DNA from: Caldilineales bacterium
GTDB taxonomy: Bacteria > Chloroflexota > Anaerolineae > JAAEKA01
Assembly (NCBI GenBank): GCA_025055015.1
Contig: JANWYQ010000055.1
Coordinates: 41,371-105,370, forward strand
Reading direction: 5' to 3'
Length of the DNA stretch: 64,000 bases
The notes below the pieces were generated by a model. It was not told the origin of the DNA. It did no database searches and worked only from the letters and a program-made list of their open reading frames with translations. The position numbers and the translations under genes were made by a program. Shown here in pieces: positions 1 through 12,883 of this stretch. Numbering within the stretch: the stretch's first letter is position 1; each line of letters opens with the position of its first letter.

Positions 1-7
1 AGCCATC

Positions 8-3000
8 GTGCTCGATCCTTGGGGCCTGGGCGTGTGTGTGGTGCTACCTGAACAACAGCTTCCGGCCGTGCAAAGCCTTGCCGAGTCCTGGTGGGAGATC
101 GAGACGGACGGCACAATAGATAGGATCCCGGTGGACGCCCGCCGAGTGGACATGGACCTGAAGACCCGCCTCGCTTGTGGATTGCTGCGCAAGCCGGCGC
201 CCGAGTACAAGGTCCGGTTTTATCGTCGGGTCGGGCAAGCCGCCAGTGAATTGGTACGGGAGTGGGCGTACCGGGGCGTGGGTGCTACGCAGTCCTTCCT
301 GGCCTTCGATCCCCAGACCGGCGGCCTAATTCCACAGCCCAGGCACCTACCAGCGCGTTTGCTGTGGATCCTGTGTCCGCCGGATGGCATGGTGCAGTCC
401 GATCCGCCTGTTCCATCGTTGATCCGAGAAAAACTGCCGTCATTGCCTTGGGACTGGCATGCATGGCGCGGTTACGCACTCGACTTGCGAGGCGTGAGTA
501 CTCTCACGATACGGTCCAGCCTTGGCCAGACCTTAATCTCCGTGGTCGAAGCCCAGGCCGAGCCGACCGTTGAGCTGGTAAATGCTAAACAACTCGACTT
601 GCTAGAAGACCCGGTACCGGTTTTTGTGGGTACCCCGCCGAAGCTGCGGATTCGCGCCGCTGAAGGGGGTGCTTCGGAAGTCCGTCTGGCGCGCTGGCGC
701 CTGGAACTCAGTCATGAATGGGAGGCCGACCCAAAGCGTGATATCAGGACGCGCCTTAGCGAGCTGAGCGGTCTGGTCATGCAGCAAGATGGTTACATCG
801 AGCTGCCGCTCTCGCATCCGCAGTTGCTAGGCGCCGAGCCCGTGGGCCAGTACCGCCTTCGACTGCGGGGACCATTCGGCAGCTGCGCTGAACTTCGTTT
901 TCGGATTGTGCCCCATTTGCATGTAATAGGCCACGAAGACGTGTATCTGCCTGCACCGGACAATAGCTCGCCGATGGCACAGTTGCTCTTGGAGACGGAC
1001 GCCCATAGCCGGGTCGAGTTCATGGAGAACCACCCCGAAGCTCAGTTGCAGGAATTGGCATGTGACAGCCGGTCGCGCTGTTACGAGGTTCGGGTTCCCC
1101 CAGACTGCGCTGACGCACCCTTGCGCCTCGTGCACCAAGTGCGGGATGGCCACTCAGCCTACATACCCCTACGCATCCCGATCCGCCGGTTGCGTTGGTC
1201 GGTGATTCTACAGGCGGACTCCATTGCACAACCTGTCTGGAGGAGCAGTCCATCCACTATCTATCTGGCCGAGCTGGACCAGAGCCTGTCCCCCTATCTT
1301 TTTCTTGAGTTACCGGTTGTCGCAGGCAGCGACTTATCGGTGGAGCTACGTTTTCTCGGGGTGGACGACGAAGTTATTACGGAACTGAGTTCGCCGCGGC
1401 CATCTCGCCCCGCCCGTTTGCGACGATTCGATCTGCGATCGGTGCGCGATGCGTTACGCATGTCCTCATCCCCTGCGATTCGTGTCGATCTACACATCAA
1501 CGGCCTGCCCGTGCGCGATCCATTGACGTTGACGATCTTGACCATCCGGCGGAGTATCGCCGTGGAGTGGGCTGACGTTGTATTGCTTAAAAGCGATGGC
1601 AAACAGTCTGTTGAAGTTGCCTGGGAGCCGGAGATCTCGCTGCGTTGGCGCCAGGTTCGACTGTGGAGCCTGACCCGTCCCTGGACAGAGCCGATCACCG
1701 TGCCGATCCCCGATTCAGCGCGGGGCAAGCACACCTTCCCGCTCGAGGCCGATGCCCTGCCGCCCGGCCGCTATCTGATCGAGTTCTCGGTGAGCGATCC
1801 CTGGCTACCCGAGACTGCTCCAACCCGCCCACAGAGTGATGCGCCTAATGTGAAGTCTGTCGTGATCGGTTCTTTGGAGGAGCGTCTGGCAGAATTGGAG
1901 GCGGCGCGTCGGCAAGGGAAAGAGGTGTTTTCGTGTGCCTGTGAAAGCGCATTTTTATGGAAAGAATTGGGACGCGTTGATCGAGCGGAAGAGAGTTTGG
2001 AACACTGTTGGCAGAGCCGACGCTTGGCATCGTTGTCACAGCTTCTGACGCTAGCACAACAGTTCCGAGACCTACCCACCGGTCGGGCCTTTGGGCTTAG
2101 GCTTTATACTGGTGAACAGCTCCGAGAAGTGATAACGACTGCTCGGCACAAGGGCTTGTCACACTCAGTGCTTGGCGCTTACTTGAACGGTTTGCCTCCG
2201 CTGAGAAGACTGACGCCGGACGCACTGGAGGCATTGTTAGATGCTCCCGATGAGCGCTTGCGAACAGCAGCTGCAAGCCATTTGATTGAGGAAGGCTATG
2301 CCAGGGCTGTTCAGGCAGTACTGGAATGGGAGGCGTCCGGCAGGCTTTCCCGGCGCGACCTAGACGATCTGTTGAGCCGGAATTTGTCGCTTGCTGTCAA
2401 CTATCTCGCGAACAATCTACCTCCCGAAGAGCTCTTGCGCCTTCTAGACACGTCGGACAGAGCCGACGTCCGTCTAGCTCTAGCAGCAGAAATGACAAAG
2501 CGAGGACGTGTTGAGGGTGTTTTGGCGATAGCTCATCTTTACGCTAACAGAGCTATTTCAGCGGATCAAGCACTGGCAGCGATTCAACCTAGTGTACACT
2601 TTGCGGTGCGTTGTCTACATGAACACAAACCAGGTAGGGGTACCAGACGTCTACTCGATGCAATTCTGGACGCCTATCCGAAGGCCCTTCCAGTGGTGGA
2701 ACCTGGCGTATGGATGAAGTGCAACCTTGGTTGGGCTCGAATTGACTCCATTCAGAGCGCTCATGGCGAGATCATACCGTGGTTCTCCACCCATGAGGTG
2801 CCGAAAGGTGCTAGATTCTCCGTGACCTTTCATCCAGATACTGAGGCGATCTGCGCAGCCATAGACACACAACACAGACAGGTGTTCTTTCAAGGGCTCA
2901 GCACGGTCTACCTATGCAGAAAATGCAATCAGTACATTGCGTCGCGCTATGAGAGGATTACGGGCGAGCACGATAGAAGAGCGCACGGGGGCGTGCAGCC

Positions 3001-3073
3001 ACGGTTTGCAACTCTGTGTGTTCCGGTGCCATTGGTTGGAGGCTTAGAGTTCCGACACAAACCCCCGGCCTAG
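8..3073 (+). CDS. large hypothetical protein (approx 1021 aa, probably 5'-truncated by window edge); no recognisable catalytic motifs; candidate DruH-like partner of downstream helicase
   Basis: Long ORF on + strand ending 22 nt before the helicase gene. Reading frame is open back to nt 2, so the true start may lie upstream of the window. Repetitive beta-rich segments. C-terminal helical repeat region (LRTAAASHLIEEG..., LALAAEMTKRG...) and a terminal CxxC pair (CRKCNQY). Function is inferred only from synteny with the DEAH/DUF1998 helicase. Confidence 0.5.
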   Translation: MLDPWGLGVCVVLPEQQLPAVQSLAESWWEIETDGTIDRIPVDARRVDMDLKTRLACGLLRKPAPEYKVRFYRRVGQAASELVREWAYRGVGATQSFLAFDPQTGGLIPQPRHLPARLLWILCPPDGMVQSDPPVPSLIREKLPSLPWDWHAWRGYALDLRGVSTLTIRSSLGQTLISVVEAQAEPTVELVNAKQLDLLEDPVPVFVGTPPKLRIRAAEGGASEVRLARWRLELSHEWEADPKRDIRTRLSELSGLVMQQDGYIELPLSHPQLLGAEPVGQYRLRLRGPFGSCAELRFRIVPHLHVIGHEDVYLPAPDNSSPMAQLLLETDAHSRVEFMENHPEAQLQELACDSRSRCYEVRVPPDCADAPLRLVHQVRDGHSAYIPLRIPIRRLRWSVILQADSIAQPVWRSSPSTIYLAELDQSLSPYLFLELPVVAGSDLSVELRFLGVDDEVITELSSPRPSRPARLRRFDLRSVRDALRMSSSPAIRVDLHINGLPVRDPLTLTILTIRRSIAVEWADVVLLKSDGKQSVEVAWEPEISLRWRQVRLWSLTRPWTEPITVPIPDSARGKHTFPLEADALPPGRYLIEFSVSDPWLPETAPTRPQSDAPNVKSVVIGSLEERLAELEAARRQGKEVFSCACESAFLWKELGRVDRAEESLEHCWQSRRLASLSQLLTLAQQFRDLPTGRAFGLRLYTGEQLREVITTARHKGLSHSVLGAYLNGLPPLRRLTPDALEALLDAPDERLRTAAASHLIEEGYARAVQAVLEWEASGRLSRRDLDDLLSRNLSLAVNYLANNLPPEELLRLLDTSDRADVRLALAAEMTKRGRVEGVLAIAHLYANRAISADQALAAIQPSVHFAVRCLHEHKPGRGTRRLLDAILDAYPKALPVVEPGVWMKCNLGWARIDSIQSAHGEIIPWFSTHEVPKGARFSVTFHPDTEAICAAIDTQHRQVFFQGLSTVYLCRKCNQYIASRYERITGEHDRRAHGGVQPRFATLCVPVPLVGGLEFRHKPPA

Positions 3074-3094
3074 CCTGCGCGCTCGGAGGACATC

Positions 3095-6000
3095 ATGGCT
3101 CGACCTATCCACCCTCTCGATGCAACCCGCAAACTGAGCGAAGACTACGCGCGCTATCTGCGGACGATCTACTTCTTTCGTGATACCGAGCTACGCGCAC
3201 AGTTCGAAAAGGCATTGGATGCGCCCGACTTCCTAGTGCGCGGGCCGATCCTGGAAGCCGCCCCGCCCTTCCGCTTGGGACGCTCGATTCGTCAACTGAT
3301 CGAGGCCGGCGTGCTGCACCGCGACTTCCGACAGCTCTGTTCCGATGCATTGCCCTATGAGCGACCGCTTTACTTGCACCAGGAGGAGGCCATTGTCAAA
3401 GTGGTGGCGCACGGTCGCAACGTGGTCGTTGCCACCGGCACGGGCAGCGGCAAGACAGAGACCTTCCTGATCCCGATCTTCGATCATCTGCTGCGTCAGC
3501 GAGAGGCGGGCCTCTTGAAACAGCTCGGGGTGCGTGCGTTGCTGCTCTACCCTATGAACGCGCTGGCCAACGACCAGCTCAAGCGCCTGCGCCGACTGCT
3601 GGCCGCTTTCCCCGATATCACCTTCGGCCGTTATACGGGCGAGACACCCGAAGGCCAGCGTCAGGCCGAAGATCTGTTCCGCCGCCAGTTCCCAGCCGAG
3701 CGTCTCTTACCCAACGAGCGGATCAGCCGCGCGACGATGCGGGAAAGCCCGCCACACATCCTGATCACCAACTACGCGATGCTGGAATACCTGCTGCTCA
3801 GGCCCAGGGACAGCGAGTTCTTCGACGGCGAGACGGGGCGTTTCTGGCGCTTTATTGCACTGGACGAGGCGCACATCTACGACGGCGCCACCGGTATCGA
3901 GATCGCCATGCTGTTGCGTCGAGTAAAGGAGCGGGTCGTGCGCAGCGAGCCAGGACGTCTACGCTGCATCGCCACCAGTGCGACGCTGGGCCGCGGTCGC
4001 CAGGACTTCCCCGCGGTCGCAACCTTTGCGCGCGAGCTGTTCGGGGAGCGCTTCGAGTGGGTGGATGATGACCCGGTGCGCCAGGATGTGGTCGAGGGTC
4101 AACGGGAAGAGATGGCGCAGCTCACGGCGCCGTGGGGCGAAGGTTCGGGTGAGCTATATGCTGCGCTTGCGCAAGCAGTTGTGGCCGAGCAATCGCCGGC
4201 CGACCTAGCCTCTGCCGCTTTGCAAGCCGGTTTGCCCGGCGAGGTTGTTCAGGAGGCGGCCCATGCCGCAGCCCAGGCCAAGTCTCACGCTGCGTCTCCT
4301 GCTGAGCAATGGACGGCGGGGATCAATGCTTTCCTGTATGCGGCGTTACGCGGGGACGGCCGGTTACATCGGCTGCGCGCGGCGCTGCGAGAACCTCAGG
4401 ACCTCCGCAAGTTGGCCGGCAAGTTAGGCGCCGACGGGACGGATGCCGAGCCGCTGATCAACCTGGTGCAGCTGGCAGTGCGTGCCCGATCTGCGCCCGA
4501 CGCGATGTCGCTCCTACCAGCCCGTTACCATGTATTCGTCCGAGCGCTGGAGGGCGCGTTCGTGTGCCTGAACCGCCACCATTCCGCTCATGCGGAGGAA
4601 GGCAAGCCGCGCTTCTTTCTGACGCGTTTCGACAACTGCCCGCATTGTCAGCAGCGCGTCTTCGAGCTGGCCACCTGCCCGCGCTGCGGCGCTGCCTACA
4701 TCGTCGGCCGCGAAGAGACAGCGCGTCTGGCCGGCGGGGGCACAGTGCGCCTCTTGCTCCACCCTCATCCGGCCAGCGCAGAGACGGACGGCGGACATGC
4801 CTACTTCGTCTTGAATGGCGATGCGCTGCAACCGGACGAAGATGAGGCCGTCGTGACCCAGGCGGCGGTAGAGCTGCTGGGGACTGAACGGCTGGAGCCC
4901 TACACGCTCTGTCTGGGCTGCGGAGCCGTCTCGCCGGCCGAAGGCGGCGGGCCCCGGTGCATCTGCCGGCCGACGACGCCAAGGATCTCCTTGCGCAAGG
5001 TGGCGGTTGAGGAGCCGACCACGGCCGACGGCGCCACAGCCGCGCGCCGCTCCCGCCGTGAGGCCGGCATCCTGAGCTACTGCATCGGCTGTGGCGCGCG
5101 CAACCCCAATGGCGTCGTTTACCGGTTTCTCACCGGCCAGGATGCGCCGGTGAGTGTACTGGCGACGTCGCTCTATCAGGTGTTGCCGCCCGACCGGGGC
5201 GCGGACGCTGCGAAGCTGCCGGGACATGGCCGTAAGCTGTTGGTGTTCGCCGACAGCAGGCAGGACGCAGCCTTCTTTGCGCCCTACCTGGAACGCACCT
5301 ATCAGCAGATCTTGCGTCGGCGCCTGATCCTGAAGATCCTTGCGGAGGACCCGGAGGGTCGGAAAGGCCGGCTGCGGCTGGACGACCTGGCAGGCCGTCT
5401 GTTGCGCCAGGCCGAGGATGCAGCCCTGTTCACCGTCGAGCAGAGCTACGATGAGCGCCTGACCCTGGCGCGGCAGTGGCTGGCGCAGGAGTTTGTGGCC
5501 CTGGACTACCGTATTGGCCTGGAGGGCTTAGGCTTGCTGAGCTATCGGCTGGTACCGCCCGAGCTTTGGGAGCCGCCGCCGGTCCTGCTAGCGTCGCCAT
5601 GGAACCTAGGCCGGGAAGAGGCCTGGAACCTGCTAGTGCTACTGCTCAACACACTGCGTCAGCAGGGTGCAGTCACCTTCCCGCCCAACGTGGACGTGCG
5701 CGATCGAGAAGCGTTCGGGCCGCGCAACGTGGAGCTGTTTGTAGGCGAGGTGGCCGATGAGAGGCACGGTGTGTTGGGCTGGGCCCCCCGTCGAGGCAGC
5801 AACCGTCGCCTTGATTTTCTGACGCGCTTGTTACAGCGTCGTAACGGCCTGTCGGCGAAAGAGGCCCAGGCGATCGCTCAAAGGGCGCTTCAGGGGCTTT
5901 GGACCTACCTGACCAGCCCCAACTCGTGCTGGCGCAATCACCTGGTCGCCGAGTCCCGACCCCAGGTTGGCGTCGCCTGGCGCCTGAACTACCGCTTCTG

Positions 6001-8083
6001 GGAATGGGTCCCTGTGGAGGGAGCGGGTGTCCCCGTACACCGTTGCGACCACTGCGCCAACGTTTCTTATATCAACCTGGACGACCTATGTCCGCTCTAC
6101 GGTTGCAATGGCCGCCTGGTACCCATGGCTGCTGGGGACACAGCGTGGGATGACAACCATTACCGACACCTGTACCGTACCTTGGAGCCGATCTCGGTTG
6201 TAGCAGAGGAACACACGGCCCAGTGGAAGCCAGACGAGGCAGGTCGCGTGCAGGATCGCTTCATCCGCGGGCAGATCAACGTGCTCAGCTGCTCGACCAC
6301 CTTCGAGCTGGGCGTGGACGTGGGCGACCTGCAGGCGGTGCTGATGCGCAACGTACCCCCGACTACCGCCAACTACATCCAGCGGGCTGGCCGCGCAGGG
6401 CGACGAACGGACTCGGTCGCCTTCGTGCTCACCTACGCGCAGCGTCGCTCCCACGACCTCACCCATTTCAACAAACCGGAGAAGATGGTGGCCGGCCGTA
6501 TCCTGCCGCCGGCAGTGGCCGTCAGCAACGAGAAGATCGTGCGCCGCCATGTCCACTCGGTCTTCCTAGCGGCTTTCTTCCGTTGGGCGAAGGATCAGCA
6601 CCGAAGGGAATTTGGCTCGGCAGGCGCTTTCTTTGCACCGGAAGACGAAGGGCCTTCGGGCCTCGACTTGCTCGCCGAGTATATCCGCCTACGGCCCGCT
6701 TCGCTGCCGGAAGCGCTGCTACGGATCGTGCCCCAAGATTTGCACGATGTCCTCGATATCGGCCGCTGGGGGTGGTTACCGAGCCTTACCAACGACACGG
6801 GAACGGGCATCCTCGATCGGGCCGCTCAGGAAGTGAACAACGATCTAGCTCTGTACGCCCAACTCGAGCAAGAGGCCGTGCGTCAGCGGCGCTACAACCA
6901 AGCCGAACACTTCCAGCGCGTGGCAAAGACCGTGCGCGACCGGGAGTTGCTCGGCTTTCTGGGCAGCCGCAACGTCCTGCCCGCCTACGGCTTCCCCAGC
7001 GATGTCGTCGAACTGCGCACGGGCCACATCCCCTCGATCCCGGAAGCGCGCAGGATCGAGCTCCAGCGCGACCTGAAGATCGCCATCGCCGAATACGCGC
7101 CCGGCGGCGAGGTGGTGGCGGCCAAGCGCATCTGGACCAGCGGTGGCCTCTACCGGATGCCAGGCCGCGATTGGCAACCCATCCACTATGCCGTCTGCCC
7201 CGATTGTGGCCGCTTTCATCGCGGCGCGCAGGAGATCGAGGGGCCGTGCGTGATATGCGGCGCAAGCCTGCGCAGTTGGCGTAGTCCGCACGGTCAGTTC
7301 ATCAGCCCCGAGTTCGGCTTCGTTGCGGCTCGCGAGCCGCGCAAAACCGGCGAGAACCGGCCGCAGCGGCTTTATGCCTCGCGCGTCTACTTTACCGAAT
7401 ACGCGCCCGAAGGGGACGAGCCGAGTGCGCTGGAACCTGTGCCGGAGCTGTCTGGCCCGGCGATCCGCACAGCCCGGCGCTACTCCCGCTACGGCAAGCT
7501 GGCGGTGGTCAACAGCGGTTTTCTCAACGCCGGTTTTCGCGTCTGCTCGATCTGTGGGTGGGCTGAACCGATGACGCCAAGCCGGCGGCCGCGCTGCAAG
7601 CCGGCCCATCAGAACCCGCGCACCGGCCATGACTGCTCCGGCTCCATTGACACCTACCACCTGGGCCACGAGTTCATCACCGACGTGTTGGAGCTCCGCT
7701 TCAACGGCGCGTTGGCGCCGGCTGGGGACATGAGACTGTGGCTTTCGACCCTCTACGCATTGCTGGAAGGGGCCAGCGAGACGCTGGGCATCCCGCGCGA
7801 CGATCTGGACGGCACGCTTTACCCTTACGAGGGTGGCTTGCCGCCCGCGTTGGTGCTCTTCGACAACGTGCCCGGCGGCGCCGCGCATGTACGGCGGGTG
7901 GCGCAAGCCCTGCCGGCGGTGGTGCAGGCCGCATGGGAACGCGTGGCCGGCTGCGAGTGCGGCGAGGAGACCAGCTGTTATGAGTGCCTGCGCAACTTCT
8001 ACAACCAGTGGTGCCATGACCAGTTAAAGCGAGGTCTGGCACGGGACTTTCTCCGAATGGTTTTGGAAAACGCGACGCGTTGA
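3095..8083 (+). CDS. DEAH-box SF2 helicase with C-terminal DUF1998 (MrfA/DruE-like zinc-ribbon) domain, 1662 aa
   Basis: Walker A motif VVATGTGSGKTETF (approx nt 3425-3466). DEAH box in LDEAHIYDG (nt 3859-3885). Motif VI QRAGRAGRR (approx nt 6381-6407). Multiple CxxC...CxxC zinc-ribbon pairs: CPHCQQRV..CPRCG, CDHCANV..CPLYGC, CPDCGRF..CVICG. Terminal cluster CECGEETSCYECLRNFYNQWCHDQ (nt approx 7945-8015) typical of DUF1998. About 700 aa are inserted between the RecA1 and RecA2 halves. A GGAGGA RBS precedes the ATG. Confidence 0.85.
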   Translation: MARPIHPLDATRKLSEDYARYLRTIYFFRDTELRAQFEKALDAPDFLVRGPILEAAPPFRLGRSIRQLIEAGVLHRDFRQLCSDALPYERPLYLHQEEAIVKVVAHGRNVVVATGTGSGKTETFLIPIFDHLLRQREAGLLKQLGVRALLLYPMNALANDQLKRLRRLLAAFPDITFGRYTGETPEGQRQAEDLFRRQFPAERLLPNERISRATMRESPPHILITNYAMLEYLLLRPRDSEFFDGETGRFWRFIALDEAHIYDGATGIEIAMLLRRVKERVVRSEPGRLRCIATSATLGRGRQDFPAVATFARELFGERFEWVDDDPVRQDVVEGQREEMAQLTAPWGEGSGELYAALAQAVVAEQSPADLASAALQAGLPGEVVQEAAHAAAQAKSHAASPAEQWTAGINAFLYAALRGDGRLHRLRAALREPQDLRKLAGKLGADGTDAEPLINLVQLAVRARSAPDAMSLLPARYHVFVRALEGAFVCLNRHHSAHAEEGKPRFFLTRFDNCPHCQQRVFELATCPRCGAAYIVGREETARLAGGGTVRLLLHPHPASAETDGGHAYFVLNGDALQPDEDEAVVTQAAVELLGTERLEPYTLCLGCGAVSPAEGGGPRCICRPTTPRISLRKVAVEEPTTADGATAARRSRREAGILSYCIGCGARNPNGVVYRFLTGQDAPVSVLATSLYQVLPPDRGADAAKLPGHGRKLLVFADSRQDAAFFAPYLERTYQQILRRRLILKILAEDPEGRKGRLRLDDLAGRLLRQAEDAALFTVEQSYDERLTLARQWLAQEFVALDYRIGLEGLGLLSYRLVPPELWEPPPVLLASPWNLGREEAWNLLVLLLNTLRQQGAVTFPPNVDVRDREAFGPRNVELFVGEVADERHGVLGWAPRRGSNRRLDFLTRLLQRRNGLSAKEAQAIAQRALQGLWTYLTSPNSCWRNHLVAESRPQVGVAWRLNYRFWEWVPVEGAGVPVHRCDHCANVSYINLDDLCPLYGCNGRLVPMAAGDTAWDDNHYRHLYRTLEPISVVAEEHTAQWKPDEAGRVQDRFIRGQINVLSCSTTFELGVDVGDLQAVLMRNVPPTTANYIQRAGRAGRRTDSVAFVLTYAQRRSHDLTHFNKPEKMVAGRILPPAVAVSNEKIVRRHVHSVFLAAFFRWAKDQHRREFGSAGAFFAPEDEGPSGLDLLAEYIRLRPASLPEALLRIVPQDLHDVLDIGRWGWLPSLTNDTGTGILDRAAQEVNNDLALYAQLEQEAVRQRRYNQAEHFQRVAKTVRDRELLGFLGSRNVLPAYGFPSDVVELRTGHIPSIPEARRIELQRDLKIAIAEYAPGGEVVAAKRIWTSGGLYRMPGRDWQPIHYAVCPDCGRFHRGAQEIEGPCVICGASLRSWRSPHGQFISPEFGFVAAREPRKTGENRPQRLYASRVYFTEYAPEGDEPSALEPVPELSGPAIRTARRYSRYGKLAVVNSGFLNAGFRVCSICGWAEPMTPSRRPRCKPAHQNPRTGHDCSGSIDTYHLGHEFITDVLELRFNGALAPAGDMRLWLSTLYALLEGASETLGIPRDDLDGTLYPYEGGLPPALVLFDNVPGGAAHVRRVAQALPAVVQAAWERVAGCECGEETSCYECLRNFYNQWCHDQLKRGLARDFLRMVLENATR

Positions 8084-8211: not shown

Positions 8212-9267
8212 ATGCCGACTACCTCTCCACCCCAACACGAACTCACTACTCCCTCTCCTCTCCTCGATCCCACCGGCCGGCTCGTGCAGGTGGGTTGGGC
8301 CAGGGCGCCGTTGCTGGACTGCAACTTGGAACAGGTCCGCTTCTACCCGCGGTTGTTTCGCTTCTTACAGCGTTTTCGTATCAAGCGCTGGGACTACTAC
8401 GGCGTCACCACTCCGGAGCGCTTCTTCTCCGCAACCCTGGCCGACTTGGGCTACGCCGGACAGGCGTTCGTCTACACTGTGGACTTCACCACCGGCGCCT
8501 ACCACGAGGAGACCATCACCCTTCCCCTGGGACGGGGGATTGTCCTGCCGCGCAACAGCACGGCCGGCGACAGTTACTTCTCCGACGGCAAAACGGCGCT
8601 CCGCTTCGAGGTGCGAGAGGATGAGCGTCGCCTGAGCGTGACCTGGCCCCGCTTCGGCGGCCAACCGCTTAGCGCCGAGATCGTCCTGGCCACGCCGCCT
8701 GCCCACCAGTCCACCGTGGTGGTCATCCCCATCGGACGCCGTCGCTTCTACTACAACCGCAAGATGAACTGCCTCCCGGCGCGCGGCTGGCTGCAGATCG
8801 GCTCGGAGCGCAGCGAGCTCAGTCCGGACACTTGCTTGGGCAACCTGGACTGGGGCCGAGGCGTCTGGGAGTACCGCTCTTTCTGGGTGTGGGCTAGCGC
8901 CTCCGGCTTTCTGCCCGACGGCCGCACCGTAGGGTTGAACCTGGGCTTCGGCTTTGGCGACACGTCGGCGGCCACCGAGAACACCCTGATCCTCAACGGC
9001 CGCATCCACAAGCTGGGGCAGGTGGACTTCTCCTACGACCCGGCCGATTTCCGCCGTGCGTGGCGCATGACGGCCCCGGACGGGCGGCTGGACGTGGAGT
9101 TCGTTCCCTTCGTCGAACGCGTAGCCCGCACTAACCTGCTGGTGATCACCAGCGAGGTACACCAGCTGTTCGGTCGCTACCGCGGCCGGGTCGTCGCCGA
9201 CGACGGAGAGGTCATCCCCCTCATGGGCCTCATCGGCTTCGCCGAGGAGCATCGCGCGCGCTGGTGA
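8212..9267 (+). CDS. conserved hypothetical protein (possibly DUF2804-like), 351 aa
   Basis: Clean ORF with no TM or catalytic motif recognised. The family assignment is from memory of a KRWDYYGV-type motif and is weak. Confidence 0.45.
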   Translation: MPTTSPPQHELTTPSPLLDPTGRLVQVGWARAPLLDCNLEQVRFYPRLFRFLQRFRIKRWDYYGVTTPERFFSATLADLGYAGQAFVYTVDFTTGAYHEETITLPLGRGIVLPRNSTAGDSYFSDGKTALRFEVREDERRLSVTWPRFGGQPLSAEIVLATPPAHQSTVVVIPIGRRRFYYNRKMNCLPARGWLQIGSERSELSPDTCLGNLDWGRGVWEYRSFWVWASASGFLPDGRTVGLNLGFGFGDTSAATENTLILNGRIHKLGQVDFSYDPADFRRAWRMTAPDGRLDVEFVPFVERVARTNLLVITSEVHQLFGRYRGRVVADDGEVIPLMGLIGFAEEHRARW

Positions 9268-9455
9268 CGAGGGGTGCTGGGCATGTGCGCGCTCGAGGAA
9301 CCACGTGGCGGCTACCGTATGCGTGAACGATGGCCACGCATCCCTGAGCAGCATCTGAAGAAGGTCGGGTCGGGGTTCGAACCGGACGCTAGAGCCAGGC
9401 GGGACGCCCTCTTGATCCGGGGGATGAGGGCACCTTCTCCGGCCGCTTCAGAATC

Positions 9456-9483
9456 TTGACAAATCGGATGTCCAGAATAGAAT
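9456..9483 (+). promoter_or_regulatory. sigma70-like promoter of the lysine cluster (TTGACA-16 nt-TAGAAT)
   Basis: TTGACA at 9456-9461 and TAGAAT at 9478-9483, with a 16-nt spacer, about 30 nt upstream of the leader ORF. Confidence 0.55.
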
Positions 9484-9514
9484 GCAGGCCACGTTGCAGT
9501 GTAGACGTTTGCCT

Positions 9515-9595
9515 ATGACCTGCGCTTCCATCTTCGCCAAGTCCAAGTCCAAGCAGCCGTCCCAGGCCTGGGATGGCTTGTTGAGCTTGGGCTGA
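9515..9595 (+). CDS. lysine-operon leader peptide (MTCASIFAKSKSKQPSQAWDGLLSLG, three AAG Lys codons)
   Basis: ATG at 9515 and TGA at 9593-9595. Lys codons in the KSKSK stretch. The ORF lies between the promoter and an intrinsic terminator upstream of lysW. Thermus thermophilus is known to regulate its AAA lysine cluster through a Lys-rich leader peptide. Confidence 0.6.
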   Translation: MTCASIFAKSKSKQPSQAWDGLLSLG

Positions 9596-9620
9596 GCGCG
9601 GTCCACCCACCCAAGTTTGC

Positions 9621-9662
9621 AAGTCCTGCCAGGCCTGGCGCCTCGGCAGGACTTTTTGTTTG
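9621..9662 (+). terminator. intrinsic terminator / attenuator hairpin (GTCCTGCC-loop-GGCAGGAC followed by TTTTTGTTT)
   Basis: Perfect 8-bp GC-rich stem at 9623-9630 pairing with 9645-9652, followed by a T-run. The hairpin lies 80 nt upstream of the lysW ATG. Confidence 0.7.
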
Positions 9663-9743
9663 CCTATACGGCGGCAATGCGGCCCCTCCTCGCCCGCCCG
9701 GCGAGCCAGGGCCGCTTTTTTATCCCCCACCCAGGAGTGCATC

Positions 9744-9914
9744 ATGACCTACCAAACCAACTGTCCCGAGTGCGACGCCGTCCTTACCCTCACCGACCCC
9801 CTCCAGGGCGAAATCGTGCCCTGCCCCGACTGCGGTGTGGAGCTGGAGGTGGTGTCCGTAAGCCCGCTGACCCTGGACCTGGCGCCCGAGGAAGAGGAGG
9901 ACTGGGGCGAATGA
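9744..9914 (+). CDS. lysW: alpha-aminoadipate/glutamate carrier protein LysW (56 aa)
   Basis: N-terminal Zn-ribbon CPECDA..CPDCG. Acidic C-terminal tail EEEEDWGE characteristic of LysW. AGGAG RBS. Stop overlaps the lysX start (ATGA). Confidence 0.9.
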
Positions 9915-10777
9915 CGCGCGTGGCCGTCCTCGTTTCCCGCATACGCGTCGAGGAGAAGCTGCTGCTGGCCAGCCTGGAGGCGGCCGGCGCGCAGGTGCAG
10001 GTGGTCAACGACGGGGAGCTGGTCTTCCGCCTGGGTGACGGCGTCACCCGGCTGGAGGCTGACGTGGCGCTGGAGCGCTCGGTGAGCACGGCGCGTGGGC
10101 TCTACGCTCTGCGCCTGCTGGAGGCCGCGGGCATGCCCACGGTCAACACCTACACGGTGGCCTCCACCTGCGCGGACAAGCTGCTGACCACCGCTGCGCT
10201 GACCGAGGCCGGCATACCCCAGCCGCAGGCGCGCGTCGCCTTCACGCCGGAGGCCGCTCTCCAAGCCATCGAGGAGCTGGGCTATCCGGTGGTGCTCAAG
10301 CCGGTGGTGGGCTCGTGGGGCCGGCTGCTCGCCCGGGTCAACGACCGAGACGCGGCCGAGGCGATCCTGGAGCATAAGGAGGTGCTGGGCTCCTACCTGC
10401 ACAGCATCGTCTACGTGCAGGAGTACATCGCCAAGCCGGGCCGCGACGTCCGCGCCTTCGTGGTGGGCGACGAGACTGTGGCGGCCATCTACCGTCGCTC
10501 CGACCACTGGATCACCAACACCGCTCGCGGGGGCCAGGCCGGCAACTGCCCGGTGACGCCGGAGATCAACGACCTGTGCCGCCGCGCCGCGCGTGCGGTG
10601 GGCGCAGGCGAAGCCGGCGCAGTGCTGGCCGTTGACCTGCTGGAGGACCCCGACCGCGGGCTGCTGGTCAACGAGGTTAACCACACCATGGAGTTCCGCA
10701 ACAGCATCGAGCCCACCGGCGTGGACATTCCGGGGCTGGTGGCGAGGTATGTGCTGGCGCGGGCGGGTGGCCGCTGA
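9911..10777 (+). CDS. lysX: LysX, alpha-aminoadipate--LysW ligase (RimK-type ATP-grasp)
   Basis: ATP-grasp fold motifs. Immediately follows lysW with an ATGA overlap. Confidence 0.85.
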
Positions 10778-10892
10778 TCGGTAACCGATGACCGGTGACC
10801 GGTAGCTCGTAAGCCGCAACCCTCTGCGCGAAGAGACGACCGCTCACTGATCACCGATTACCGCTCACTGATCACCGTTCACCGTTCACCGA
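10776..10892. repeat. heptanucleotide tandem repeat array (GGTAACC/GGTGACC units), then reverse-complement array (CTGATCA/CCGTTCA units) giving an imperfect inverted repeat
   Basis: 7-nt periodicity visible in cggtaac cgatgac cggtgac cggtagc ... ccgctca ctgatca ccgatta ccgctca ctgatca ccgttca ccgttca. Located in the lysX-lysY intergenic region. Confidence 0.8.
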
Positions 10893-10899
10893 GACAACC

Positions 10900-11973
10900 A
10901 TGACCGTACGAGCATCCATCGTCGGCGCGTCGGGCTACGGCGGCGGCGAGCTGCTGCGGCTGCTGCTGGCCCACCCCCACGTGGAGGTCGCCCAGGTGAC
11001 CTCGGAGTCCAACGCCGGCAACTACGTGCACAGCGTGCACCCCAACCTGCGGCCCGGCCTGGCCATGCGGCGGTATGCGGGCTACGCCAGCGGCCAGGGG
11101 CTGCGCTTCACCAGCATCGCCGAGCTGCAGCCGTGCGACGTGCTCTTCCTGGCCCTGCCCCACGGCGAGGCGCAGCGTCGCATCGAGCACTTCGCCGGCC
11201 TAGCCGAGCGCATCGTGGACCTGTCGGCCGACTTCCGGCTGCGGGACCCGGCCGCCTACCGCCAGCGCTACGGCGAGCCCCACCTTGCGCCGGCTTGGCT
11301 GGAGCGCTTCGTCTACGGCCTGCCGGAGCTGAACCGGGAGGCCATCCGCCAAACCCGCTACTGCAGCGGCGTGGGCTGCAACGCCACGGCCTCCATCCTG
11401 GCCCTGCTGCCGCTGCAGCGGGCCGGCCTCCTGCGCGCGGACCGGCCCATCGTGGTGGACGTCAAGGCCGGCTCCTCCGAGGGCGGCGCATCGCCCAGCC
11501 TGGCCTCGCACCACCCGGAGCGCAGCGGCGCAGTGCGCTCCTTTGCGCCCACCGGCCACCGCCACGAGGCCGAGGTGATCCAGGCCCTGGGCCGGGAGGA
11601 CATCTACCTCTCGGTGACGTCCATCGAGCTGGTGCGCGGGGTGTTAGCCACGGCCCATTGCTGGGTGGAGCCTGGGCTGACCGACAAGGACCTGTGGCGC
11701 GCCTACCGCGCCGCCTACGGCCAGGAACCCTTCGTGCGCATCGTGCACGAGCGGACCGGCGTCTATCGCCATCCGGAGCCCAAGCTGCTGGCCGGCACCA
11801 ACCTGGCCGACGTCGGCTGGGACCTGGACCCGGCCACCGGCCGGCTGGTGGCCCTGGCCGCGATTGACAACCTGGGCAAGGGCGCAGCCGGCAGCGCCGT
11901 GCAGTGCATGAACCTGATGCTCGGCCTCGACGAGACGGCTGGGCTGGAGTTTGTCGGGTTACATCCGGTGTGA
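10900..11973 (+). CDS. lysY: LysY / ArgC-type N-acyl-gamma-aminoadipyl(glutamyl)-phosphate reductase
   Basis: N-terminal Rossmann motif VGASGYGGGELLRLL. Catalytic Cys region SGVGCNATA. Length 357 aa. Confidence 0.85.
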   Translation: MTVRASIVGASGYGGGELLRLLLAHPHVEVAQVTSESNAGNYVHSVHPNLRPGLAMRRYAGYASGQGLRFTSIAELQPCDVLFLALPHGEAQRRIEHFAGLAERIVDLSADFRLRDPAAYRQRYGEPHLAPAWLERFVYGLPELNREAIRQTRYCSGVGCNATASILALLPLQRAGLLRADRPIVVDVKAGSSEGGASPSLASHHPERSGAVRSFAPTGHRHEAEVIQALGREDIYLSVTSIELVRGVLATAHCWVEPGLTDKDLWRAYRAAYGQEPFVRIVHERTGVYRHPEPKLLAGTNLADVGWDLDPATGRLVALAAIDNLGKGAAGSAVQCMNLMLGLDETAGLEFVGLHPV

Positions 11974-12055
11974 TCAGTAACCGGTGAACGGTAACCGGTA
12001 AGCAGTGACCGGACTGCCAACCACCGTTTGCCGTTTACCGATCACCGTTTATCGG
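11972..12055. repeat. heptanucleotide tandem repeat array (GAACGGT/AACCGGT forward, then CACCGTT/TGCCGTT reverse orientation)
   Basis: tgatcagtaaccggtgaacggtaaccggtaagcagtgacc...ccaccgtttgccgtttaccgatcaccgtttatcgg. Same unit family as 10776-10892 and 52779-52880. Located in the lysY-lysZ spacer. Confidence 0.8.
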
Positions 12056-12067
12056 CATGGAGTAGAC

Positions 12068-12883
12068 ATGAACCCACTCGTCATCAAGGCCGGCGGCGGC
12101 GCGGGCGTGGACGTGGACGCGATCTGCCGGGACGTGGCAGCGCTGGCAGCGGCCGGGCAGCCGCTGGTGCTGGTGCACGGCACGTCGGCCGCCGCGGACG
12201 CGCTGGCGCAGCGAGCCGGCGTGCCTGTGCGCACCCTGACCTCCCCCTCCGGCCACGTCAGCCGGTACACCGACCCGGAAACGCTGGAGATCTACGTGGC
12301 CGCAGCGGCCGGCCAGGTGAACAAGCGCATCGTGGCCACCCTGCAGGGGCTGGGCTGCAACGCGGTGGGCCTGTCGGGCGTGGACGGCCGCCTGCTGCTG
12401 GCCGAGCGCAAGGACGCCGTGCGCGCGGTGGAGGCCGGCCGGCAGCGCATCGTGCGGGACGACTACACCGGCCGGCTGGTGTCGGTCAACGCGGACCTGC
12501 TGCGGCTGCTGCTGGCCGCGGGCTACACGCCGGTGGTCGCGCCCCTGGCTTTGGGCACGCAGGCTGAGCGGCTCAACGTGGACGGCGACCGTGCGGCGGC
12601 GCTGGTGGCCGTGGGCCTGGCGGCCGCCAAGCTGGTCATTCTCACCAACGTGCCAGGCCTGCTGGCCAGCTTTCCCGACGAGGCCAGCCTGGTGCGCCAT
12701 GTGCCGGCCGACCGTCTGGACTGGGCCGAGGGCCTGGCCCAAGGGCGCATGAAGAAGAAGGTGCTGGCCGCGCGCGAGGCCCTGGCCGGCGGCGTCCCCA
12801 CCGTCATCCTGGCCGACTCGCGCGTGCCTCAGCCGGTGCAGGCGGCGCTGGCGGGCAGCGGGACGTGGATCGGTGAACGGTAA
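12068..12883 (+). CDS. lysZ: LysZ / ArgB-type amino-acid kinase
   Basis: Begins MNPLVIKAGGGAG (amino-acid kinase family N-terminus). Confidence 0.8.
   Translation: MNPLVIKAGGGAGVDVDAICRDVAALAAAGQPLVLVHGTSAAADALAQRAGVPVRTLTSPSGHVSRYTDPETLEIYVAAAAGQVNKRIVATLQGLGCNAVGLSGVDGRLLLAERKDAVRAVEAGRQRIVRDDYTGRLVSVNADLLRLLLAAGYTPVVAPLALGTQAERLNVDGDRAAALVAVGLAAAKLVILTNVPGLLASFPDEASLVRHVPADRLDWAEGLAQGRMKKKVLAAREALAGGVPTVILADSRVPQPVQAALAGSGTWIGER

What the first reader, a model, noticed from the sequence alone, without database searches (positions are those of the whole stretch)
8..8083. Candidate anti-phage system: large unknown protein + DEAH helicase fused to DUF1998 (Druantia type III-like DruH/DruE architecture)
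The 1662-aa protein has SF2 helicase motifs: Walker A ATGTGSGKT, a DEAH box, and motif VI QRAGRAGRR. Its RecA2 half is displaced about 700 aa by an insertion rich in CxxC zinc ribbons. It ends with the four-Cys CECGEETSCYECL...WCHDQ module that defines DUF1998 (MrfA/DrmB/DruE).

It is immediately preceded on the same strand by a 1000+ aa protein with no recognisable domains. A large domain-less protein (DruH) followed by a helicase plus DUF1998 protein of more than 1600 aa (DruE) is the published gene composition of Druantia type III. Housekeeping MrfA/SftH repair helicases are only about 750-800 aa and pair with an exonuclease, not a 1000-aa unknown.

The locus sits at the edge of the window next to a biosynthetic operon, so it could be an accessory island. 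If it is not Druantia, the size and the zinc-ribbon-rich insertion would make it an undescribed helicase-based system.
Basis: partly seen in the sequence, partly recalled or inferred. Interest (0 to 1): 0.8.

Follow-up and report, generated by a model that had tools for sequence, protein, structure and literature searches.

The report
Compact Druantia type III phage-defence gene pair
This is a two-gene anti-phage cassette of the already described Druantia type III kind (a fast-evolving DruH-like partner plus a compact DruE helicase) in a Chloroflexota genome; it is an ordinary member of that kind, and the only gap is that current DruH search models do not recognise its partner protein.

Summary
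Window 3095-8083 encodes a 1662-aa YprA-family DEAH helicase with the MZB/DUF1998 zinc module. It matches the PADLOC DruE models (E = 3e-196). Window 2-3073 is the last 1023 aa of a 1275-aa protein that has no Pfam, NCBIfam, PADLOC or PDB sequence match.

In 67 of about 78 fetched loci with usable upstream sequence, spread over several bacterial phyla and Methanosarcinales archaea, a related helicase follows a homologue of this large protein on the same strand. No third gene is conserved. Recurrent neighbours are defence genes, and close relatives sit in different flanks.

The partner family is homologous to the actinobacterial partner (hhalign E = 3e-65). A partner of that size and gene order is the DruH shown to defend Mycobacterium smegmatis; I infer that the actinobacterial loci belong to that type. 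The family is remotely related to E. coli DruH (93.5% probability, E = 2e-7, signal in the N-terminal domain). Predicted structures show the DruH plan: N-terminal helical domain, about six Ig-like domains, C-terminal helical domain.

The helicase lacks the PLD nuclease of subtype III-A, so this is the compact "III-B" subtype. It is a new member of a known kind.

In passing: relatives of the partner carry RNA-polymerase alpha-CTD, sigma-70 or S1 modules.

The parts
2..3073 (+). DruH-like partner gene: the last 1023 codons (aa 253-1275 of 1275) plus the stop codon. The first 252 codons lie upstream of the window.
   Evidence: Translation. Full-length P0001 is 100% identical. L001 overlaps with 0 mismatches. 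hhalign to actinobacterial DruH gives E = 3.2e-65, and to E. coli-type DruH 93.5% probability, E = 2.3e-7.
2..1867 (+). Array of about six Ig-like beta-sandwich domains in the partner (fragment aa 1-622).
1874..2674 (+). C-terminal helical-repeat (TPR-like) domain of the partner (fragment aa 625-891).
2699..3070 (+). Clade-specific terminal beta module with a C2H2-type zinc motif. C-x2-C-x14-H-x4-H lies at nt 2915-2986 (full-length C1224, C1227, H1242, H1247).
   Evidence: These residues are nearly invariant in alignments A2 and A5. The model shows strands plus helix 983-995. Most distant relatives do not align here.
3085..3089 (+). Shine-Dalgarno GGAGG, 5 nt before the druE ATG. The partner's stop codon is at 3071-3073, leaving a 21-nt spacer.
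   Evidence: Sequence read directly.
3095..8083 (+). druE: compact YprA-family DEAH helicase, 1662 aa, with no C-terminal nuclease domain.
   Evidence: PADLOC DruE1 3.3e-196 and DruE3 4.6e-184. Pfam DEAD, Helicase_C and MZB. PDB E. coli-type DruE 9tu7 at 1e-82.
3377..4003 (+). RecA1 (aa 95-303), with Walker A GSGKT at nt 3443-3457 and DEAH at nt 3863-3874.
   Evidence: Pfam PF00270 at 3.6e-21. Motif residues are invariant.
4004..6199 (+). Insertion of about 730 aa between RecA1 and RecA2, carrying conserved CxxC pairs.
   Evidence: Gap between the Pfam DEAD and Helicase_C hits. Invariant Cys pairs. The lineage-wide BrxA-like, zinc beta-barrel and MarR-like inserts are described in PMC12458937. 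The folds were not modelled here.
6200..6406 (+). RecA2 core (aa 1036-1104), with motif VI QRAGRAGRR at nt 6380-6406.
   Evidence: Pfam PF00271 at 1.7e-10. Invariant residues.
7754..7990 (+). MZB/DUF1998 four-Cys zinc module (aa 1554-1632; C1620, C1622, C1628, C1631).
   Evidence: Pfam PF09369 at 1.3e-14. C1622, C1628 and C1631 are invariant and C1620 nearly invariant.

Best explanation
This is a two-gene, co-transcribed anti-phage cassette of the compact Druantia type III kind (III-B), carried as an accessory insert in a Caldilineales (Chloroflexota) genome.

Shown here:
- The genes are co-oriented, 21 nt apart, with a strong ribosome-binding site before druE.
- DruE is an intact SF2 YprA-family helicase with the DUF1998 zinc module and no nuclease domain.
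- The partner belongs to a fast-evolving family that is always upstream of this helicase clade and co-diverges with it.
- The partner has the DruH body plan: helical N-domain, about six Ig-like domains, helical C-domain.

Inferred from work on E. coli, P. aeruginosa and M. smegmatis DruHE:
- DruE loads on exposed single-stranded DNA or ssDNA-dsDNA junctions of replicating phage DNA and unwinds 3'-to-5' using ATP.
- The DruH-like protein is the infection sensor and ssDNA-engaging component. It reads phage proteins or DNA ends through its Ig array and terminal module.
- The partner possibly also nicks or trims DNA.
- Because DruE here has no PLD or Vsr nuclease, DNA damage must come from the partner or from host nucleases. 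Alternatively, defence works by blocking phage genome circularisation and replication, as reported for the M. smegmatis system.
For: DruE identity:
- PADLOC, Pfam and PDB matches.
- The PADLOC score pattern (DruE1 653 bits, DruE3 613 bits) is the same as for compact helicases of Mycobacterium, Micromonospora, Fervidibacillus and Anaerolineae.
- It is 33-66% identical over full length to that clade, against 28% to E. coli III-A DruE and 26% to E. coli ArmC.

Pairing:
- A large same-strand ORF lies directly upstream in nearly all of 80 loci.
- 67 of these fall into one BLAST-linked family with P0001.
- No third gene is conserved: at most 7 of 65 loci share any neighbour.

Partner = DruH-like:
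- hhalign A2 vs actinobacterial partners: E = 3.2e-65 over 771 columns.
- hhalign A2 vs E. coli-type DruH: probability 93.5%, E = 2.3e-7, collinear over 724 columns.
- Reversed-alignment controls give P about 0.5. The N-terminal domain alone gives 81%, E = 1.2e-5.
- Models with pLDDT 86.7 and 82.1 show a helical N-domain, about six Ig-like domains and a helical C-domain. Cryo-EM shows the same plan for DruH (10.64898/2026.05.13.724313 section 7; 10.64898/2026.05.12.722862 section 9).

Co-divergence, with the partner about twice as divergent: DruE 88/79/66/53/40% against partner 64/57/40/30/25%. PMC13192584 reports the same for DruH as the sensor.

Accessory status:
- GC is 0.58 (partner) and 0.65 (druE) against 0.69 for the rest of the window. 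GC3 is 0.62 and 0.77 against 0.82-0.91.
- A HigB-like toxin lies upstream.
- Close relatives sit in unrelated flanks.
- Relatives neighbour HmaA, GajB-like, type I R-M, BrxC, Mokosh-like and NERD-UvrD genes.

Experimental precedent: the M. smegmatis DruH (1132 aa) and compact DruE pair protects against phages (PMC13316683).
Against: - No DruH sequence model recognises the partner: PADLOC DruH3 models and NCBIfam give nothing, and precomputed Pfam is '-' where true DruH carries PF27205/PF27201.
- A profile of the family does not hit the solved E. coli DruH 9tud.
- The remote homology signal is confined to the N-terminal domain. The Ig array alone gives E = 0.049, and the C-terminal domains are unrelated.
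- In the hhalign alignment, E. coli DruH R35 and E75 (nearly invariant and invariant in III-A; my guess at the equivalents of P. aeruginosa R22 and E64) pair with non-conserved positions.
- The ssDNA/ATP pocket residues of E. coli DruH lie in regions with no detectable similarity.
- Fold searches found only generic Ig and TPR matches, because 9tud is not in the fold libraries.
- In this window the flanks are a toxin gene and housekeeping lysine/arginine biosynthesis genes, not a defence island.
- No experiment exists for any Chloroflexota member.
- That the actinobacterial loci used here belong to the M. smegmatis type is inferred from size, gene order and taxonomy. It was not shown by sequence.
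Confidence: 0.85

Rival explanations
1. It is a separate two-gene helicase system whose large partner only resembles DruH in layout (convergent helical/Ig/helical scaffold). On this reading 'III-B' systems, including this one, are not Druantia III in the sense of shared ancestry of both genes, and may work differently.
For: No DruH HMM, NCBIfam or Pfam model hits the partner. The C-terminal domains are unrelated and the Ig array is not significant on its own. The helicase is only 28% identical to III-A DruE, barely closer than to ARMADA ArmC at 26%. DruE here lacks the PLD nuclease.
Against: hhalign gives 93.5% probability, E = 2.3e-7, collinear over 724 columns, with clean reversed controls. 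The N-domain alone is significant and shares the motifs YxxxLxx(H/E)GG(I/L)P and G-x-W. Gene order, partner size and domain order are the same.
Confidence: 0.1
2. It belongs to another YprA-centred defence class of the same lineage, described by Bell et al. in 2025. The candidates are ARMADA and the Chloroflexota-restricted TALON system. PADLOC 2.0 has no models for those classes, so their helicases would also hit DruE models.
For: The host is Chloroflexota. A relative of the helicase (L084, 44% identity) sits next to a NERD-UvrD_C gene and a partner homologue that ends in S1 (OB-fold) domains. The partner's C-domain is TPR-like, which recalls TALON's TPR-CSD protein.
Against: The window and its 5' extension hold no BrxHII/SNF2 helicase, PglX methyltransferase, NERD nuclease, TATA-binding-protein gene or CSD. 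The helicase groups at 37-44% full-length identity with actinobacterial, Bacillota and archaeal compact DruE, a widespread clade with at least 580 loci, whereas TALON is 'extremely rare'.
Confidence: 0.04
3. It is a housekeeping MrfA/YprA/SftH-type DNA-repair helicase with an accessory protein.
For: It shares the YprA core and the MZB domain. In M. smegmatis, SftH can replace DruE in the cassette (PMC13316683).
Against: The helicase is 1662 aa with the defence-lineage inserts. NCBIfam repair models score far below their cut-offs. No MrfB exonuclease is nearby. Distribution is patchy across phyla, flanks vary and relatives have defence-gene neighbours. Composition is atypical for the genome.
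Confidence: 0.01

Closest known systems
Druantia type III-B / actinobacterial DruH-DruE (M. smegmatis MSMEG_1253-1254; PMC13316683; 'type III-like branch' of Bell et al., PMC12458937)
   Same: Two genes only, with the partner first. The partner is about 1100-1300 aa with no annotated domain. DruE is compact, about 1550-1670 aa, ends at DUF1998 and has no PLD. DruE is 40-41% identical to Mycobacterium sp. and Micromonospora homologues. The partners are homologous (E = 3.2e-65). PADLOC score patterns are identical.
   Different: The host phylum is Chloroflexota. The partner's last roughly 380 aa (TPR-like domain plus a C2H2 zinc/beta module) show no similarity to the actinobacterial C-terminus. 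There is no experiment for this clade.
Druantia type III-A (E. coli EDL933/ATCC 8739 and P. aeruginosa DruH-DruE; PDB 9tu7 DruE, 9tud DruH)
   Same: Same gene order and two-gene composition. The DruE core shares RecA1, zinc-rich inserts, RecA2, OB-CON and DUF1998. The partner has a helical N-domain, about six Ig-like domains and a helical C-domain. There is remote N-domain homology.
   Different: III-A DruE is about 2100 aa with two C-terminal PLD-like domains, and is only 28% identical. III-A DruH hits PADLOC DruH3 and carries the NCBI name STY4851/ECs_5259 and precomputed Pfam PF27205/PF27201; this partner hits none of them. The reported functional residues of DruH are not traceable here.
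ARMADA and TALON (YprA-lineage defence systems, PMC12458937)
   Same: The helicase comes from the same ARMADA-BRIGADE-TALON-Druantia lineage, with a long zinc-rich insert between RecA1 and RecA2. TALON is also mainly found in Chloroflexota.
   Different: The locus has no SNF2/BrxHII helicase, PglX methylase, GajB-like helicase, NERD nuclease, TPR-CSD or TBP genes. The helicase is 26% identical to E. coli ArmC.
MrfAB / YprAB and SftH repair helicases; DISARM DrmAB
   Same: SF2 core plus an OB-CON-DUF1998 canopy. Likely 3'-to-5' translocation on ssDNA.
   Different: The repair helicases are about 750-800 aa, lack the inserts and pair with the MrfB exonuclease. DISARM splits the canopy into DrmB and adds a methylase, DrmD and DrmC. 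PADLOC DrmA hits here are weak and local (1e-16).

Membership tests
Druantia (any type) | A DruE signature protein: a large YprA-family SF2 helicase with DEAD/DEAH RecA1, RecA2 and the four-Cys DUF1998/MZB module, matching DruE profiles. | tested here: met
   PADLOC DruE1 at 3.3e-196, DruE3 at 4.6e-184, with DruE2 and DruE4 also hit. Pfam DEAD, Helicase_C and MZB. No single DruE model is matched end to end: 653 bits, against 2180 bits for a true III-A member.
Druantia (any type) | Lineage-specific inserts between RecA1 and RecA2 (BrxA-like, zinc-binding beta-barrel, MarR-like) and zinc modules in the OB region. | tested here: inconclusive
   A 730-aa insert with invariant CxxC pairs is present, along with further pairs at aa 1368-1388 and 1484-1514. 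The folds of the inserts were not modelled.
Druantia type III | Exactly two conserved genes, with the large partner (DruH) directly upstream of druE on the same strand, and no DruA-D or DruM/F/G. | tested here: met
   21-nt spacer with a ribosome-binding site. The pairing holds in 67 of about 78 loci with usable upstream sequence. No third gene is conserved. The partner has no PADLOC hit to other Dru proteins.
Druantia type III | The partner is a member of the DruH sequence family (PADLOC DruH3; NCBI name STY4851/ECs_5259; Pfam PF27205/PF27201, YjiT family). | tested here: not met
   0 PADLOC hits at E <= 10 for the window protein, and 0 DruH hits (0 hits at all for most) in 13 further partner proteins from relatives scanned at E <= 0.1-1. 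No NCBIfam hit. Precomputed Pfam is '-'. The positive control, E. coli DruH, hits 10 DruH3 models.
Druantia type III | The partner is homologous to DruH at profile level and has its architecture: N-terminal helical domain, six Ig-like domains, C-terminal helical domain. | tested here: met
   hhalign 93.5%, E = 2.3e-7 over 724 columns. Reversed controls give P about 0.5. The N-domain alone gives 81%, E = 1.2e-5. Models have pLDDT 86.7 and 82.1 and show that domain order. Homology is probable, not certain. Direct superposition on 9tud was not possible.
Druantia type III-A | DruE carries two C-terminal PLD-like nuclease domains (about 2100 aa). | tested here: not met
   The protein ends 30 aa after the MZB module. 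No PLD Pfam hit.
Druantia type III-B | Compact DruE without a PLD, paired only with a DruH-type partner, on a distinct helicase branch that includes actinobacterial systems. | tested here: met
   1662 aa with no nuclease domain. It groups with actinobacterial, Bacillota and archaeal compact helicases at 33-44% identity (up to 66% within Chloroflexota), against 26-28% to III-A DruE and ArmC. The PADLOC pattern is the same. Placement against the published representative GIH50614.1 was not possible.
Druantia type III | Protects cells against phage; both genes and the helicase motifs are required. | not testable with these tools
   Shown only for the E. coli, P. aeruginosa and M. smegmatis systems.
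MrfAB/YprAB repair module | A helicase of about 750-800 aa without inserts, with an adjacent MrfB-type exonuclease. | tested here: not met
   1662 aa. TIGR03817 scores 113 bits against a cut-off of 874. The neighbours are a HigB-like toxin gene and DUF2804/lysX-type genes.
ARMADA | A YprA helicase together with a BrxHII/SNF2-like helicase and a PglX-like methyltransferase (plus a GajB-like helicase in type II). | tested here: not met
   None of these lies within 1.7 kb upstream or 6 kb downstream. For contrast, see the E. coli array.
TALON | A YprA helicase with a NERD nuclease, a TPR-CSD protein and a TATA-binding-protein homologue. | tested here: not met
   These genes are absent from the window locus. 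The partner's C-domain is TPR-like but it has no CSD or S1. One relative's locus (L084) does have NERD-UvrD_C and an S1-tailed partner.

The most novel reading that the evidence does not exclude
The DruH-like partner may be a modular sensor: a conserved core of about 900 aa (helical N-domain plus Ig array) carrying exchangeable terminal modules. In this window the module is a TPR-like domain plus a C2H2 zinc/beta module. In relatives it is one to six copies of the RNA-polymerase alpha C-terminal domain plus sigma-70 region 4, or sigma-70 regions 1.2-2, or four ribosomal-S1 domains.

These could be integrated decoys of host transcription and translation parts that phage takeover proteins bind or modify. 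Attack on the decoy would then license the DruE helicase, by analogy with plant NLR integrated decoys. The plainer reading is that they are extra nucleic-acid-binding modules.
Probability: 0.15. Interest if true: 0.7.

Novelty: new member of a known kind. Interest (0 to 1): 0.3.

Why it matters
For this locus the result is mostly tidying: it is a Druantia type III-B cassette in a phylum where none has been studied.

The practical point concerns detection. The partner family has 582 cluster representatives (50% identity) at E <= 0.001 in a library of 1.84 billion proteins. The paired helicase occurs at 580 or more loci among 185,579 species genomes. Yet the partner is invisible to the PADLOC 2.0, NCBIfam and Pfam DruH models. 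If a system call needs both genes, such systems would go uncalled, and Druantia III would be under-counted outside Proteobacteria.

The compact subtype has no nuclease in DruE. It is therefore a clean case for asking what the DruH-type partner contributes. That question is open, because the 2026 papers disagree: one reports ssDNA binding with no nuclease activity, another a 3'-5' exonuclease, and another a dimer-dependent nickase.

Tried and rejected
- Exact look-up of the DruE protein in the assembly index found nothing. The partner's full-length form did work.
- PADLOC, Pfam and NCBIfam scans on the partner and on 13 partner proteins from relatives gave no DruH hit.
- A PDB sequence search with the partner, and with a profile of its family, gave nothing, although DruH 9tud is in that file.
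- BLASTP of the partner against E. coli DruH gave E = 0.64.
- The AlphaFold-database fold libraries were not available.
- A profile search of the representative library failed because the profile exceeded 1200 positions. I used a single-sequence search instead.
- EDL933 accession NC_002655 is not in the E. coli collection. I took E. coli DruH, DruE and ArmC from plasmid pEC22-NDM-5 instead.
- No tRNA gene, Rfam family or convincing terminator marks island borders.
- I could not obtain the M. smegmatis MSMEG_1253/1254 sequences or the III-B and TALON representatives of Bell et al., so those links are inferred.
- I considered and rejected an MrfA-type repair module, ARMADA and TALON (see the membership tests).
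Full report
**1. What is in the sequence**

The window starts inside a long + strand ORF that runs to a TAG at 3071-3073. After a 21-nt spacer with GGAGG at 3085-3089, a second ORF runs from the ATG at 3095 to 8083 and encodes 1662 aa.

The first ORF is the last 1023 codons of a 1275-aa protein. P0001, from a Caldilineales (Chloroflexota) metagenome-assembled genome, is 100% identical. Contig L001 overlaps window 1-3298 without a mismatch and supplies the 5' end.

Upstream of the gene, on the other strand, lie a HigB-like toxin gene and a small ORF, then an esterase gene. Downstream of the helicase come DUF2804, a LysX-type ATP-grasp enzyme, a semialdehyde dehydrogenase, an amino-acid kinase and a class-III aminotransferase. 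These are housekeeping lysine/arginine biosynthesis genes.

The pair is compositionally atypical:

| Region | GC | GC3 |
|---|---|---|
| Partner gene | 0.58 | 0.62 |
| druE | 0.65 | 0.77 |
| Rest of window / neighbouring housekeeping genes | 0.69 | 0.82-0.91 |

**2. The helicase**

Pfam finds three domains:
- DEAD at aa 95-303
- Helicase_C at aa 1036-1104
- the MrfA zinc-binding domain (DUF1998) at aa 1554-1632

The 730-aa gap between the RecA halves holds conserved CxxC pairs.

PADLOC matches all DruE models, with DruE1 at 3.3e-196 and DruE3 at 4.6e-184. Repair-helicase models stay far below their cut-offs. The best solved relatives are two large helicases of about 2000 aa, 9tu7 and 9wae. 9tu7 is E. 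coli-type DruE, judging by its adjacent DruH entry 9tud. YprA (6znp) is far behind.

The protein stops 30 aa after the zinc module, so it has no PLD or Vsr nuclease domain.

The zinc-rich insertion is not new. [quoted passage not shown]

**3. The pairing is conserved, two-gene and accessory**

A scan of one genome per species found at least 580 loci with a relative of the helicase. I kept the best 80. They come from several bacterial phyla (Chloroflexota, Actinomycetota, Bacillota, Bacteroidota and others) and from Methanosarcinales archaea.

In nearly all of them an ORF of about 1000-1500 aa ends at the helicase start on the same strand. Of these upstream proteins, 67 fall into one BLAST-linked family with P0001.

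No other neighbour is shared by more than 7 of 65 loci. The recurrent neighbours are defence genes: HmaA, GajB-like helicases, type I restriction-modification subunits, NERD-UvrD helicases, Mokosh-like proteins and BrxC.

Two close relatives (DruE 88% identical on the P0003 contig; partner P0007, 58% identical, with its adjacent helicase) carry the same pair in entirely different flanks.

The two proteins co-diverge, with the partner about twice as divergent:

| DruE identity (%) | 88 | 79 | 66 | 53 | 40 |
|---|---|---|---|---|---|
| Partner identity (%) | 64 | 57 | 40 | 30 | 25 |

This is the behaviour reported for DruH as the sensing component (PMC13192584).

**4. Is the partner DruH?**

By standard models, no.
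- E. coli DruH, taken from the Zorya II-Druantia III-ARMADA II array on plasmid pEC22-NDM-5, hits ten PADLOC DruH3 models.
- It also carries the NCBI name STY4851/ECs_5259 and precomputed Pfam PF27205/PF27201.
- The window protein and 13 partner proteins from relatives hit no DruH model.
- Pairwise BLASTP against E. coli DruH is at noise level.
- A family profile does not reach the solved DruH 9tud.

Profile-profile comparison gives a different answer:

| Comparison | Probability | E-value | Columns |
|---|---|---|---|
| Chloroflexota-type family (A2) vs actinobacterial partners (A3) | 100% | 3.2e-65 | 771 |
| A2 vs E. coli-type DruH family (A4) | 93.5% | 2.3e-7 | 724, collinear |
| A3 vs A4 | 68.6% | 4.6e-5 | 807 |
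| Reversed-alignment controls | 0.1-0.2% | P about 0.2-0.55 | - |
| N-terminal helical domain alone, A2 vs A4 | 81% | 1.2e-5 | 173 |
| Ig array alone, A2 vs A4 | 1.1% | 0.049 | 424 |
| C-terminal domains, any pair | <1% | 0.08-0.10 | - |

The N-terminal domains share the motifs Y-x3-L-x2-(H/E)-G-G-(I/L)-P and G-x-W.

AlphaFold models of the window fragment (pLDDT 86.7) and of a full-length relative, P0020 (pLDDT 82.1), show four parts:
- a helical N-domain
- about six Ig-like domains
- a small beta module with a conserved C-x2-C-x14-H-x4-H motif

The first three parts match the cryo-EM description of DruH. Fold searches returned only generic Ig, Fn3 and TPR matches. One of them is IL-27R alpha (7u7n), which Himpich et al. 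also report as a match for a DruH domain. 9tud did not appear among the listed matches and is probably not in the fold libraries.

I conclude that the partner is a probable remote homologue of DruH with the same body plan and a different C-terminal end.

**5. Which Druantia?**

Subtype III-A DruE is about 2100 aa and has two PLD-like domains. [quoted passage not shown] Bell et al. describe a distinct type III-like branch that most often has no nuclease domain.

The window helicase compares as follows:

| Compared with | Identity |
|---|---|
| Compact helicases of Mycobacterium sp., Micromonospora, Fervidibacillus and a Methanosarcinales archaeon | 37-42% over full length |
| E. coli III-A DruE | 28% |
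| E. coli ArmC (ARMADA II) | 26% |

All the compact helicases give the same PADLOC score pattern.

The M. smegmatis system is a DruH of 1132 aa plus a compact DruE with no canonical nuclease domain. It protects against mycobacteriophages by blocking genome circularisation and replication (PMC13316683).

The Mycobacterium sp. locus in my set has an 1134-aa partner. I infer it is of that type but could not check the M. smegmatis sequences.

I considered ARMADA, TALON and MrfAB and rejected them, because their defining partner genes are absent.

**6. Mechanism**

Shown:
- an operon-like two-gene unit
- an intact helicase
- a co-evolving, fast-diverging, Ig-rich partner

Inferred from the characterised systems:
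- DruE engages exposed ssDNA or junctions in phage replication intermediates and unwinds 3'-to-5'.
- The partner senses infection and engages ssDNA.

Whether the partner also cuts DNA is disputed even for E. coli and P. aeruginosa DruH. E. coli DruH R35 and E75 are my guess at the equivalents of the functional P. aeruginosa residues R22 and E64. They align with non-conserved positions here.

With no nuclease in DruE, the damaging step is unknown. It could lie in the partner or in host nucleases, or defence could work purely by unwinding or blocking replication.

**7. Verdict**

This is a new member of a known kind: Druantia III-B in Chloroflexota. Interest is modest.

The main useful by-product concerns detection. 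Current DruH models miss this partner family entirely. The family has 582 representatives at E <= 0.001.

A second by-product is that many relatives of the partner carry RNA-polymerase alpha-CTD, sigma-70 or S1 modules at one end.

Noticed in passing
Relatives of the partner: P0023 (= L011:5068-10014), P0202, P0205, P0211, P0224, P0250, P0253, P0287 and others: Relatives of the DruH-like partner carry extra terminal modules. These are one to six copies of the RNA-polymerase alpha C-terminal domain followed by sigma-70 region 4 at the N-terminus, or sigma-70 region 4 alone at the C-terminus. Among about 173 family representatives, 11 have alpha-CTD-like modules and 14 have region-4-like modules (Pfam; local HMMs). 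They could be extra DNA-binding modules or decoys for phage proteins that target RNA polymerase.
   Followed up: partly
P0024 (aa 1041-1170); P0025 = L084:7708-12555; L033:5947-10005: Other C-terminal swaps occur on the same core of about 900 aa. P0024 has sigma-70 regions 1.2 and 2. P0025 has four ribosomal-S1 RNA-binding domains. An archaeal (Methanosarcinales) relative has a weak Ribosomal_L13e-like tail.
   Followed up: partly
L084:1114-7577 (- strand); also L005:14246-15925, L012:14933-16591, L045:15395-17053, L074:15307-17040: A NERD-UvrD-type helicase/nuclease gene lies directly next to the compact DruE gene in about five loci. It overlaps the helicase gene by 4 nt in L084, and it lies just downstream on the same strand in four others, including a Mycobacterium. 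It might be an optional third component that supplies a nuclease, or a TALON-like hybrid. The window has no such gene.
   Followed up: partly
L088:15621-16760: In the closest relative's contig (DruE 88% identical), a gene with the DruA domain (PF14236, type I Druantia) lies 1.1 kb downstream of druE. It is followed by another gene that is cut by the contig end.
   Followed up: no
L001:1088-1517 (about 0.2-0.6 kb upstream of the partner's start; outside the window): A HigB-like toxin gene (98 aa) and a 37-aa ORF lie on the opposite strand directly upstream of the cassette. Promoter-like sites in the 190-nt divergent intergenic region are at L001 1584-1612 (+) and 1551-1524 (-).
   Followed up: no
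window 8212-14065: Directly downstream of the cassette lie a DUF2804 gene and a LysX/ArgC-like/amino-acid-kinase/aminotransferase cluster (lysine via the alpha-aminoadipate route, or arginine biosynthesis). GC3 is much higher here (0.82-0.91) than in the cassette.
   Followed up: partly
window 1-64000: There are no tRNA genes and no Rfam family at gathering threshold anywhere in the 64-kb window.
   Followed up: yes
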